From IMG/VR virus record IMGVR_UViG_2851938318_000014: a DNA stretch of 40,035 nucleotides. The stretch is one strand, 5' to 3'. The stretch is from a virus (taxonomy: Duplodnaviria > Heunggongvirae > Uroviricota > Caudoviricetes). Shown here one piece after another: positions 12,001-15,000 of the stretch. Each line of letters begins with the position of its first letter. The first letter of the stretch is position 1. The position numbers are program-made.

Positions 12001-15000
12001 AGACGTGCATTCATGACATCCGCAAACAGGGACATCGCCTCCGTCACCGCAGCCTGTTTACCTTTCGTGCGCTCAAGCTCATCAATATGGCGTAACTGGG
12101 AAACGCTCAGGAAGTTATACTGCTGATTCAGGGAGGCCAGCGCCTTCACCGGATCTGCTGCAATCCCTTCAAAGGCTTTTTCCACCTTCCCGGCATCGTC
12201 CCCCACCGTCTGCAGCCATCTCTGAGAGGTTTCCCCCATGATCCGTAGCTGCCCGGCGGTATATTTCCCGCTTTCTGCCAGACGGGCCAGATTTTCTGCC
12301 GCCTGTCTGATACCACCACCGGCTTCATCGCTGATCACCCCGGCCATTTTCCACAATTCTGCCGTTGTGGTGGCAGCCGCCCCTCCGGTCAGGATCAGTG
12401 AACGCAATAAGGCCCGATCAGCCTGCTCTGCCTGCCAGGCGGCGGCAGCAAGCGCGGCCAGTACGGCAACCCCGCCACCTGCCGCCACACGGGCCACCGA
12501 CATAAATCGTCCCAGCTCACCGGCATTCCGGGCATTTTCAGCCAGTGCATTTGCCGTATCTGACAGCGACTCCTCTGATGATTCAGAGGCATCCCTGATC
12601 CCGAGAAGTTCCTCCTTCAGCAGGGTAAGCAGGCTGAGCGGTCCACCGAATGAATCGCTGATCTGCCCCCCCTGCTGCAGCATGATAAGGAAGGGATTCT
12701 GACCACCGGCAAGCTGAGTGACAATATCCGTGAACTGTGCGGGCAGTGTGCGCATGGCAGCCTTATACTGTCCGACTGATATCCCGGCTTTTTGTGCAGC
12801 CAGCGCCTGTCGGCTCAGACTCTGCTCAGCAGCATCAGCCTGTTTGAACCGCCCCGGAAATCCTGGAGACTAAACTCCCTGAGAAAGAGGTAAACAGGAT
12901 GACTAAAAATACTCGTTTTTCCCCCGAAGTCCGTCAGCGGGCGATTCGTATGGTTCTGGAAAGTCAGGATGAATATGACTCACAGTGGGCGGCAATTTGT
13001 TCCATTGCCCCAAAGATTGGCTGTACGCCGGAGACTCTGCGTGTCTGGGTTCGCCAGCATGAGCGGGATACCGGGGGCGGTGATGGTGGGCTCACCAGCG
13101 CTGAACGTCAGCGTCTGAAAGAGCTGGAACGTGAAAATCGTGAACTGCGCCGCAGTAACGATATCCTTCGCCAGGCTTCCGCTTATTTTGCGAAGGCGGA
13201 GTTCGACCGCCTCTGGAAAAAATGATGCCACTGCTGGATAAGCTGCGTGAGCAGTACGGGGTCGGACCGGTATGCAGCGAACTGCATATTGCCCCGTCAA
13301 CGTATTACCATTGTCAGCAACAGCGACATCATCCGGATAAACGCAGTGCCCGTGCGCAGCACGACGACTGGCTGAAGAGAGAGATACAGCGCGTATACGA
13401 TGAAAATCATCAGGTGTACGGTGTGCGTAAAGTCTGGCGTCAGTTGTTACGGGAAGGAATCAGGGTGGCCAGATGTACAGTGGCACGTCTCATGGCGGTT
13501 ATGGGACTTGCCGGTGTTCTCCGGGGTAAAAAGGTCCGTACGACCATCAGCCGGAAAGCCGTTGCCGCAGGCGACCGCGTAAACCGTCAGTTCGTGGCAG
13601 AACGACCTGACCAGCTGTGGGTGGCTGATTTTACTTACGTCAGCACATGGCAGGGCTTCGTCTATGTGGCGTTTATCATTGATGTGTTTGCCGGATACAT
13701 CGTGGGGTGGCGGGTCTCATCGTCTATGGAAACGACATTCGTGCTGGATGCGCTGGAGCAGGCGTTGTGGGCCCGTCGTCCGTCTGGCACCATCCATCAC
13801 AGCGATAAAGGCTCTCAGTATGTGTCACTGGCCTATACGGAGCGACTAAAAGAAGCCGGATTACTGGCATCAACAGGGAGTACAGGCGACTCGTATGACA
13901 ACGCGATGGCTGAGAGCATCAATGGTCTTTACAAAGCGGAGGTAATACACCGTAAGAGCTGGAAAAACCGTGCAGAAGTGGAACTGGCCACACTAACGTG
14001 GGTGGACTGGTATAACAATCGACGATTGCTGGGAAGGCTGGGCCATACTCCTCCGGCAGAAGCAGAAAAAGCTTATTATGCTTCCATCGGAAACGATGAT
14101 CTGGCAGCCTGAGTTCACAGATAAAACACTCTCCAGGAAACCCGGGGCGGTTCATCCTGTTCATCAATAAAAACCGGGCGACCGTCAAACCAGCTCACCC
14201 TCTCAGAAATATTTTCTTTCAGGGCAGACAGAACTGCCGCCCGTATTTCACGGTGTTTCATACACCCTCCCAGTCATTTTCTTTTCAGCACCAGACGTAA
14301 CTGATGCGTCATGGCTTTCATCATCTGCGCCGGTAATTTTTCCCGGTACATCCGGTCCCGTTCACGTTCAAAGGTTTCTGCCAGCGGTCCGGCAGTCGGA
14401 ATCTTCACCACTTCAGTCGGCAGACGGTGGCGTTTCGGCCTCCCTTTGCTGTCAGCGCCGGTGGACGATGATGCCCACGGCATACGCTGCATCACATGCC
14501 AGCGTCCGTTAGCCAGCCGGGTGATAAAGGCATCCGGGATCCGTCTTTTCCCCACAATCAGCACACTGCCACCGCCTTTCGTGACCGAACGCTCGCCTTT
14601 CTTTCGTCGCTTTCTGCGGGAAAGCCGCACGCTGGCCGTCCCCAGTTTTATGGCGGGCAGATTACCGGTGTTGATGATGACCTTCGCATAAACCCTGTCT
14701 GCGCTGGCCCGTTGCAGGCGGATACGCTCACGGATGAGACGGCGCGGAACCGCCAGCTCCCTGGCAACCGAAGAGGCCGTTTTCGCGATGATGGACTCCG
14801 CCACACGGTTAAGTGTCGTGGCGGCAGCCCGGGGAACGGCACGGCGGTCAATTGCATCCAGATTTTTCATGGCCTGCGCCAGACCTTTTATTGCCATACT
14901 CATTCCTGTTCGACAAAAATCCGGGGTTTACCGTTGTACGTGTCATAACGGGTCACCGTCAGTGTGCGGCCCTCAAACACAACAACATCATGACGGGCCG

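What the first reader, a model, noticed from the sequence alone, without database searches (positions are those of the whole stretch)
12756..14273. IS629 copy 1 joins a gpU stub to a tape measure gene missing its first 68 codons: tail shaft module deleted
On the minus strand the order is Z, then 36 codons of gpU, then IS629, then H from about residue 69 onward. The 3' part of U, the major tail protein V, the chaperones G/GT and the 5' end of H are gone, and the IS has no target-site duplication. The prophage cannot build a tail tube even though M-L-K-I-J-lom-stf are intact.
Basis: partly seen in the sequence, partly recalled or inferred. Interest (0 to 1): 0.6.

Follow-up and report, generated by a model that had tools for sequence, protein, structure and literature searches.

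The report
IS629-anchored tail-gene deletion, cryptic Stx1 prophage
An insertion sequence already sitting in a tail gene of a long-dead Shiga-toxin-1 prophage has since erased the 2,013 bases beside it, including the tail tube gene; this is real but is ordinary decay of a known cryptic prophage.

Summary
The structure is real. On the minus strand the order is Z (14274-14897), the first 107 nt of U (14155-14261), a 1,310-bp IS629/IS1203 (12845-14154), then tape-measure gene H. H lacks 49 codons, not 68: homology runs to the IS end, and codon "69" is only the first in-frame ATG.

The window is the cryptic Stx1a prophage at ssrA of E. coli RM9131. Its published relative CP-1639 and 28 complete genomes (those with a serotype label are O111) have the same IS at the same nucleotide of U, but keep the rest of U, V, G, T and full H. 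Relative to them, exactly 2,013 bp next to the IS left end are missing here, with both flanks 100% identical to CP-1639. Only RM9131 and OkiPb01689 carry this junction. Two other strains have independent 191-bp and 1,222-bp deletions anchored at the same IS end, so this is a nested series of IS-adjacent deletions.

No V, G or T exists elsewhere in the window. However, U was already broken in the ancestor. PGAP also annotates no cI/cro/N, no holin, no complete lysozyme and no complete integrase. A sibling prophage in RM9131 carries intact U-V-G-T-H.

Verdict: a correct observation of low novelty.

The parts
14274..14897 (-). gpZ, minor tail protein, complete (207 aa)
   Evidence: Pfam Minor_tail_Z 1-190/190, E=2e-55. 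53% identical to lambda Z over 1-192. PGAP annotates an intact CDS.
14155..14261 (-). gpU stub: 35 codons plus 2 nt of the 132-codon tail terminator gene. It reads on into the IS as a 48-aa fusion ORF (14115-14261).
   Evidence: Identical to nt 1-107 of the intact U in L003. Pfam Phage_tail_U positions 1-38/130. The same junction is present in 31 genomes.
12845..14154 (+). IS629/IS1203 copy 1, 1,310 bp, complete. It has IRL TGAACCGCCCCGGAAATCC... and IRR ...GGAAACCCGGGGCGGTTCA, orfA at 12899-13225 and orfB at 13222-14112 (-1 frameshift).
   Evidence: Pfam HTH_Tnp_1, rve, HTH_21 and rve_3. PGAP: IS3-like element IS1203 family transposase with programmed frameshift. Identical to the IS629 in U of CP-1639.
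12844..12845 (.). Deletion junction. 2,013 bp present in CP-1639/E2855 are missing here: H codons 1-49, T, G, V and the 291-nt 3' part of U. One nt (T) is ambiguous. There is no target-site duplication.
10347..12844 (-). 5'-truncated tape-measure gene H' (codons 50-881 plus stop). The first in-frame ATG at 12755 gives the 802-aa ORF 10347-12755.
   Evidence: tblastn of the sibling-prophage H: aa 50-881, 99.4%. Lambda H matches from aa 39. 100% identical in DNA to CP-1639 H. Pfam TMP_2 and Tape_meas_lam_C. PGAP pseudogene 'missing N-terminus'.
10021..10350 (-). gpM, the first intact gene of the distal tail module (M-L-K-I-J-lom-stf, 1948-10350).
   Evidence: 100% identical to M of the sibling prophage. 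PGAP annotates M, L, K, I, J, lom and the tail fibre as intact CDSs.
33395..34704 (+). IS629 copy 2, same orientation and identical sequence, lying between cII and a 231-nt erf remnant. It also has no TSD (GTA vs CTC). It is a recombinant of a truncated copy and a later full copy.

Best explanation
This is a secondary, IS629-anchored adjacent deletion in a Shiga toxin 1a prophage of the CP-1639 type at ssrA, which was already cryptic.

Step 1 (shown, ancestral). IS629 inserted into codon 36 of the tail terminator gene U.

Step 2 (shown as an outcome; mechanism inferred). In the common ancestor of RM9131 and OkiPb01689, an intramolecular IS629 transposition event joined the left end (IRL) of that same element to a new target 2,013 bp away, at codon 50 of H. 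The intervening DNA was lost: the 3' part of U, V, G, T and H codons 1-49. One intact IS was left with hybrid flanks and therefore no target-site duplication.

The join could have arisen in two ways. One is a direct transposase-made join. The other is a transient second copy inserted in H in the same orientation, followed by IS-IS homologous recombination. I weight these two routes about equally.

The consequence is that the prophage has no tail tube, tail chaperone or complete tape-measure gene of its own. Because U and, by annotation, the lysis, immunity and integration functions were already lost, the deletion is best read as neutral decay rather than a functional switch.
For: - The window is identical to RM9131 over the 2.5-kb query, and ssrA and stx1a are annotated.
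- CP-1639 (AJ304858.2) and E2855 have the identical IS at the identical U nucleotide, with the rest of U, V, G, T and full H to its left.
- Window versus CP-1639 gives two collinear blocks meeting at 12845, with CP 33056-35067 absent. H'-M on the left (10021-12844, 2.8 kb) and the IS-to-head-gene side on the right (3.5 kb) are 100% identical.
- The IS terminus is retained to the nucleotide and the IS sequence is unchanged.
- Junction census in 5,426 complete genomes: the IS|U5' junction is in 31 genomes, the undeleted U3'|IS junction in 28, and the H|IS junction in 2.
- Independent deletions of 191 bp (2013C-4361) and 1,222 bp (O111:H8 7-54 11A) are anchored at the same IRL. This makes a nested series.
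- Canonical IS629 insertions in these genomes do make 3-bp duplications: CCT, CTC and GGC. Lack of one here therefore marks a rearrangement.
- Precedent for the two-step route in the same prophage: OkiPb01689 preserves a truncated-IS | erf 386 nt | full-IS intermediate, and RM9131's copy 2 is its recombination product.
- A simple same-orientation IS629 insertion lies 56 bp from the endpoint in H of an O157 strain.
- IS3-family elements are reported to generate adjacent deletions with the IS retained, dependent on transposase (PMC8860574).
Against: - No genome with the predicted two-copy intermediate was found. The IRR|H-5' junction is absent from 5,426 genomes. The two-step route is therefore unproven here.
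- A one-step route is not formally expected from the copy-out-paste-in scheme, as discussed in bioRxiv 10.1101/2023.06.07.543989.
- Even the ancestral insertion in U lacks a duplication and lacks 1 nt of U. The history of this copy is therefore more complex than 'one insertion, one deletion'.
- Neutrality is inferred from annotation. It was not tested.
Confidence: 0.85

Rival explanations
1. IEE-dependent repair. IS629 transposase cut at IRL, the broken flank was resected for about 2 kb, and the IS-excision enhancer (a PrimPol-helicase) rejoined it to the IS end by microhomology-mediated end joining.
For: - RM9131 encodes an intact IEE that is 786/786 aa identical to Sakai ECs_1305, in an SpLE1-like element at serX.
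- IEE-dependent events are reported to produce deletions from a few nt to more than 40 kb adjacent to the IS (PMC9943667).
- The same prophage shows an IEE-like imprecise excision. CP-1639's third IS629 plus 8 nt is absent at window 36795/36796, at a 3-nt TGA microhomology.
Against: - The junction has at most 1 nt of homology here, and none at the 191-bp and 1,222-bp deletions. IEE end joining in vitro needed 4-6 nt.
- The IS end is retained exactly, which points to a transposase-made join rather than resection and repair.
- IS3 makes IS-retaining adjacent deletions without IEE.
Confidence: 0.1
2. An IS-independent event. Either an illegitimate deletion that happens to end at the IS, or exchange with another lambdoid prophage that brought in a foreign H' segment.
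For: - The genome holds several near-identical lambdoid prophages.
- Patches of clustered mismatches against CP-1639 at 8811-9496 and 16656-17722 show that inter-prophage gene conversion does occur.
Against: - The deletion ends exactly at the first base of IRL, and so do two independent deletions in other strains. That is very unlikely for IS-independent events.
- H'-M is 100% identical to CP-1639's own H-M. It differs at 40 sites from the sibling prophage's H.
Confidence: 0.03
3. An assembly artefact: repeats collapsed at IS629 during genome assembly.
Against: - The identical junction appears in two complete genomes from cattle in different countries: RM9131 (USA) and OkiPb01689 (Okinawa, Japan).
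- These two genomes differ elsewhere in the prophage.
- The 2-kb segment is unique within the prophage and is not flanked by two IS copies in the parent structure.
Confidence: 0.02

Closest known systems
Cryptic Stx1 prophage CP-1639 of E. coli O111:H- 1639/77 (AJ304858.2; Creuzburg et al., Microbiology 2005, cited)
   Same: - Same integration site (ssrA) and same stx1a.
- Same IS629 at the same nucleotide of U.
- Same IS629 next to cII replacing the immunity region.
- Collinear alignment blocks at 97.7-100% identity covering nearly the whole window, apart from the differences listed under 'different'.
   Different: - CP-1639 keeps the 3' part of U, V, G, T and full-length H. The window lacks these 2,013 bp.
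- CP-1639's copy next to cII is truncated at nt 890, whereas here it is full length.
- CP-1639 has a third IS629 that is absent here.
IS3-family adjacent deletions: IS3 in PMC8860574; IS629 polymorphisms in O157 (Ooka et al. 2009) and IEE (Kusumoto et al. 2011), both as cited in PMC9943667
   Same: - The IS is retained with its end intact.
- Variable lengths of DNA next to one end are lost.
- There is little or no homology at the endpoints.
- Nested independent events start from one IS copy.
   Different: This is a natural series read from genomes, not an experiment. Dependence on transposase or IEE is not shown here.
IS150-mediated rbs deletions in the E. coli long-term evolution experiment (Cooper et al. 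2001; from my own knowledge, not checked here)
   Same: An IS3-family element produces repeated deletions of different lengths, all anchored at one end of a resident IS copy. Those were explained by a new nearby insertion followed by IS-IS recombination.
   Different: Different IS and different locus. Those deletions were selected, whereas these are probably neutral.
Defective prophage pool of O157 Sakai (Asadulghani et al. 2009, PMC2669165)
   Same: Multiple lambdoid prophages share near-identical morphogenesis genes, carry IS insertions and deletions, and can be complemented in trans or recombine.
   Different: For RM9131 no induction, packaging or transfer data exist. This prophage also lacks, by annotation, lysis and immunity genes and a complete integrase, and no excisionase is annotated.
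Phage lambda tail assembly genes Z-U-V-G-T-H-M-L-K-I-J (NC_001416)
   Same: Same gene order. Z, the U stub and H are recognisably homologous: 53%, 53% and about 80% aa identity over the aligned parts.
   Different: V, G and T are entirely absent. U is reduced to 35 codons and H lacks its N-terminal 49 codons.

Membership tests
IS629/IS1203 (IS3 family) | About 1.3-kb element with terminal inverted repeats TGAACCGCCCCGG... | tested here: met
   1,310 bp. The first and last 13 nt form a perfect inverted repeat.
IS629/IS1203 (IS3 family) | Two overlapping ORFs (orfA with an HTH, orfB with a DDE/rve domain) joined by a -1 programmed frameshift | tested here: met
   orfA 12899-13225 and orfB 13222-14112. 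Pfam HTH_Tnp_1, HTH_21, rve and rve_3. PGAP annotates a 'programmed frameshift' and an AL1L pseudoknot.
IS629/IS1203 (IS3 family) | Sequence identity to elements annotated as IS629 | tested here: met
   Identical to the element annotated IS629 in the U gene of CP-1639.
IS629/IS1203 (IS3 family) | 3-bp target-site duplication at a simple insertion | tested here: not met
   Flanks are GTT versus TCC. Simple insertions of the same IS elsewhere have CCT, CTC and GGC duplications. The absence here fits a rearranged copy rather than arguing against IS identity.
IS-mediated adjacent deletion | Related genomes have the same IS at the same site with the missing DNA still present next to it | tested here: met
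   CP-1639, E2855 and 28 genomes in all.
IS-mediated adjacent deletion | The deletion starts exactly at the IS terminus, the IS is intact, and the other IS junction is unchanged | tested here: met
   The IRR|U5' junction is identical in 31 genomes.
IS-mediated adjacent deletion | Independent deletions of different length anchored at the same end | tested here: met
   191 bp, 1,222 bp and 2,013 bp.
IS-mediated adjacent deletion | Dependence on the IS transposase | not testable with these tools
   Needs a genetic assay.
IEE-promoted IS629 deletion | The iee gene is present and intact in the host genome | tested here: met
   L012 6047-8407 is 786/786 aa identical to Sakai IEE.
IEE-promoted IS629 deletion | Microhomology of several nt at the joint | tested here: not met
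   Homology is 1 nt here and 0 nt at the two other nested deletions.
CP-1639-type cryptic Stx1a prophage | Integrated at ssrA, carries stx1a, IS629 in U, IS629 beside cII, lysozyme remnant, truncated integrase | tested here: met
Functional lambda-like tail module | Complete Z, U, V, G/GT and H together with M, L, K, I and J | tested here: not met
   V, G and T are absent. U is 35 of 132 codons and H lacks 49 codons.

The most novel reading that the evidence does not exclude
The natural nested series at one IS629 copy could be a genomic record of a one-ended, IRL-polar adjacent-deletion activity of an IS3-family transposase.

The series consists of 0, 191, 1,222 and 2,013 bp deleted, all on the IRL side. 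The IRR junction is invariant in 31 genomes. An inferred 4-nt loss at the same end in the ancestor would extend the series.

The standard copy-out-paste-in scheme does not predict such an activity, and its mechanism is still debated (with or without IEE).
Probability: 0.07. Interest if true: 0.35.

Novelty: new member of a known kind. Interest (0 to 1): 0.15.

Why it matters
The importance is limited.

- It documents one more step in the IS629-driven erosion of the O111 Stx1a prophage. It also gives a clean lineage marker: the H|IS junction is shared only by RM9131 (USA) and OkiPb01689 (Japan).
- For risk assessment, it means stx1a in this sublineage sits in a prophage that cannot make its own tail shaft. 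By annotation the prophage also lacks its own lysis, immunity and integration genes. Any mobilisation would therefore need help from, or recombination with, the sibling lambdoid prophage.
- The nested IRL-anchored deletions, and the preserved two-copy intermediate at the second IS, are a tidy natural illustration of how IS3-family elements delete neighbouring DNA. They could serve as test cases for IS/IEE mechanism studies.

Tried and rejected
- The CCTGTT hexamer on both flanks of the IS (12839-12844 and 14156-14161) was considered as a duplication or a microhomology. It is offset by 1 nt. End joining through it would have removed the IS. The two other nested deletions show nothing similar. 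I treat it as chance, at roughly 1%.
- The TCC|IS|TCC flanks in strain 7-54 11A look like a 3-bp duplication. They follow a 1,222-bp deletion, so they are most likely chance (1 in 64).
- The third genome in the H|IS junction search (O157 Balcarce_24.2) is not the same junction. It is a simple IS629 insertion 56 bp away with a GGC duplication.
- A search for the predicted two-copy intermediate (IRR joined to the 5' part of H) found nothing except that same Balcarce insertion.
- The BLAST listing for iee could not show whether RM9131 has the gene, because there were too many equal hits. I resolved this by walking to serX in the RM9131 record.
- Kusumoto 2011 and Ooka 2009 are not held in the library. 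Their content is cited only through PMC9943667, PMC8860574 and the bioRxiv review.
- No paper mentions RM9131. Its serotype was not determined here. Affinity to O111 is inferred from the shared prophage junctions.
- Junction counts do not add up exactly: 28+1+1+2=32 against 31. The 40-pieces-per-record cap in IS-rich genomes makes these counts lower bounds.
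Full report
**What is in the sequence**

- The six-frame ORF list and the raw sequence show a 1,310-bp element at 12845-14154 on the plus strand. It has terminal inverted repeats (TGAACCGCCCCGG...) and two overlapping ORFs, 12899-13225 and 13222-14112.
- Pfam assigns these ORFs to HTH_Tnp_1 and to rve/HTH_21/rve_3.
- A second, identical copy lies at 33395-34704 in the same orientation.
- To the right of copy 1, on the minus strand, are 107 nt that are identical to the start of an intact gpU gene (35 codons plus 2 nt; Pfam Phage_tail_U positions 1-38 of 130). A complete gpZ follows.
- To the left is a tape-measure gene with TMP_2 and Tape_meas_lam_C domains.
- The flanks are ...CAGCCTGTT|IS|TCCTGTTCATC..., so there is no 3-bp duplication.

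**Correction of the H boundary**

- H homology in fact continues to the last base before the IS.
- tblastn with the 881-aa H of a sibling prophage aligns residues 50-881 to 12845-10350 at 99.4% identity. Lambda H aligns from residue 39.
- H therefore lacks 148 nt, which is 49 codons plus 1 nt, not 68 codons.

**Where the window comes from**

- The 2.5-kb stretch across the junction is 100% identical to the chromosome of E. coli RM9131 (cattle, California) and to OkiPb01689 (cattle, Okinawa).
- The RM9131 annotation shows a prophage directly downstream of ssrA that carries stx1A/stx1B. All its late genes are on the minus strand.
- The phage collection identifies it as the cryptic prophage CP-1639 of O111:H- strain 1639/77 (AJ304858.2). 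The match is at 100% identity, in two pieces spanning 6,714 bp for a 4,701-bp query.

**The ancestral state and the size of the deletion**

- In CP-1639 and in E2855, the same IS sits at the same nucleotide of U. To its left are the remaining 291 nt of U, then V, G, T and a full 2,646-nt H.
- Aligning the window to CP-1639 gives two collinear blocks that meet at window 12845. CP positions 33056-35067 are absent: 2,013 bp, with a 1-nt T that could belong to either side.
- H'-M on the left (10021-12844) has no mismatch to CP-1639, and neither do 3.5 kb on the right. The IS itself is identical.
- The missing DNA consists of H codons 1-49, T, G, V and the 3' part of U.
- tblastn with V, G and T of the sibling prophage, and with lambda V and G, finds no copy anywhere in the 40-kb window.

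**Distribution**

Among 5,426 complete E. coli genomes:

| Junction | Genomes |
|---|---|
| IS|U5' | 31 |
| U3'|IS (undeleted) | 28 |
| H|IS | 2 (RM9131, OkiPb01689) |

- All of the undeleted-junction genomes that carry a serotype label are serogroup O111.
- A third hit in the H|IS search, an O157 strain, is a different and simple IS629 insertion 56 bp away. It has a GGC duplication.
- Two further genomes have the IS|U5' junction but neither of the other two junctions. In 2013C-4361, 191 bp next to IRL are missing, with the endpoint inside U. In O111:H8 7-54 11A, 1,222 bp are missing, with the endpoint inside G.
- One IS copy has therefore produced at least three independent deletions of different length. 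All start exactly at its left end, while its right junction never changes. This is the classic signature of IS-mediated adjacent deletion.

**Mechanism**

- What is shown: the IS end is retained to the nucleotide, homology at the joints is 0-1 nt, and the target-site duplication is missing.
- Simple insertions of the same IS in these genomes do have 3-bp duplications: CCT in dinI of OkiPb01689, CTC in erf, and GGC in H of the O157 strain.
- Two routes fit these facts.
- Route (a) is a direct transposase-made join of IRL to a nearby target. IS3-family elements are reported to delete adjacent DNA while remaining intact, even without IEE (PMC8860574).
- Route (b) is a second copy inserted in H in the same orientation, followed by IS-IS homologous recombination.
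- Route (b) has a worked example in this very prophage.
  - OkiPb01689 still carries the CP-1639-type truncated IS (nt 1-890), then 386 nt of erf, then a full IS whose left flank ends in CTC.
  - RM9131's copy 2 has the truncated copy's left flank and a right flank that begins CTCCATCGG. That is exactly the recombination product.
- No two-copy intermediate for the tail deletion exists among the complete genomes.
- The IEE route is possible in principle. RM9131 has an IEE identical to that of O157 Sakai. The prophage also shows one IEE-like imprecise excision, in which CP-1639's third IS629 plus 8 nt was lost at a TGA microhomology at window 36795/36796.
- Against IEE, the lack of microhomology and the exact retention of the IS end argue that it did not make this particular joint.

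**An older scar at the same end**

- Even in CP-1639 and E2855 the IS in U has no duplication, and U is 1 nt short of the intact gene. The intact gene reads GAACAGGA-A-CTGCC.
- The simplest reading is a canonical insertion with a TCC duplication, followed by loss of 4 nt next to IRL. This is an inference.

**Functional meaning**

- From established knowledge of lambda: V is the tail tube subunit, G and GT are the tape-measure chaperones, H sets tail length, and U terminates and caps the tube. This prophage cannot make a tail shaft from its own genes.
- That was already true of its ancestor, because U was split by the IS.
- In the PGAP annotation the prophage also has only an 81-nt lysozyme remnant and no holin gene. 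An IS lies directly beside cII, where cro, cI and N would be. The erf gene and the integrase are truncated.
- A preprint on O111:H8 describes CP-1639-type prophages as cryptic (PMC13596339).
- RM9131 carries another lambdoid prophage at 1.53-1.555 Mb with intact U, V, G, T and H. Its V and G are the same proteins as in undeleted CP-1639-type prophages.
- Trans-complementation or repair by recombination is therefore conceivable, as shown for O157 Sakai prophages (PMC2669165). It is untested here.

**Verdict**

It overstates the significance of that loss.
- The parent structure was published in 2005, and the type of event is well known in EHEC genomes.
- No paper mentions RM9131, and I found no paper describing this 2,013-bp allele or the nested series, though I did not search for them specifically. 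They are routine. Interest is low.

Noticed in passing
window 33395-34704; L013 37216-39801: IS629 copy 2 is a recombination product. OkiPb01689 keeps the precursor: a truncated IS (nt 1-890), then 386 nt of erf, then a full IS with a CTC duplication. RM9131 has a single full IS carrying the truncated copy's left flank and the erf CTC... right flank.
   Followed up: yes
L015 about 6000 (2013C-4361); L014 about 6000 (O111:H8 7-54 11A): Independent 191-bp and 1,222-bp deletions are anchored at the same IRL of the same IS629-in-U copy. Together with the 2,013-bp deletion they form a nested series.
   Followed up: yes
window 36795-36798: CP-1639's third IS629 (CP 7832-9141) and 8 adjacent nt (TATGGTGT) are absent. 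The joint ACTTCA|TGATCCCC has a 3-nt TGA microhomology, which looks like an imprecise, IEE-type excision.
   Followed up: partly
L013 37216 (OkiPb01689); maps to window 29475-29514: In OkiPb01689 the truncated IS copy is joined at its IRL to the Lar gene. cII, the replication genes and others (about 3.9 kb) are deleted, which is another IRL-anchored deletion. OkiPb01689 also has an extra IS629 in dinI with a CCT duplication.
   Followed up: partly
L012 6047-8407 (RM9131 chromosome 1186047-1188407): An intact IS-excision enhancer gene, 100% identical in protein to Sakai ECs_1305, lies in an SpLE1-like ter/ure/iha island at serX. PGAP now labels it 'TOTE conflict system archaeo-eukaryotic primase domain-containing protein'.
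   Followed up: yes
L003 (RM9131 chromosome 1529916-1554314): A sibling lambdoid prophage has near-identical head and tail genes and intact U, V, G, T and H. Its own L gene is frameshifted and an IS629 sits in its lysis region.
   Followed up: partly
window 8811-9496 and 16656-17722: All but 2 of the 95 mismatches to CP-1639 between 8805 and 34284 cluster in two patches, one in K/L and one in the portal and protease-capsid genes. This is typical of gene conversion from other lambdoid prophages.
   Followed up: partly
window 24036 (stxA1, 23807-24754 minus strand): A single SNP gives StxA1 S240F (precursor numbering) relative to CP-1639. RM9131's StxA protein accession also differs from that in E2855 and OkiPb01689.
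   Followed up: partly
window 12839-12844 and 14156-14161: The hexamer CCTGTT occurs on both flanks of IS629 copy 1, offset by one base. I judge it to be chance, at about 1%.
   Followed up: yes
window 2453-2765: Four diverged 43-nt direct repeats (63-77% identical to the reference copy) lie within the tail-fibre gene. They are G/C-rich with CCN-type periodicity, suggesting collagen-like Gly-X-Y repeats.
   Followed up: no
window 23043-23123: Only an 81-nt lysozyme remnant lies between Rz and stx1B. No holin or nanS-p-type gene is annotated, so the lysis cassette is deleted in all CP-1639-type prophages examined.
   Followed up: partly
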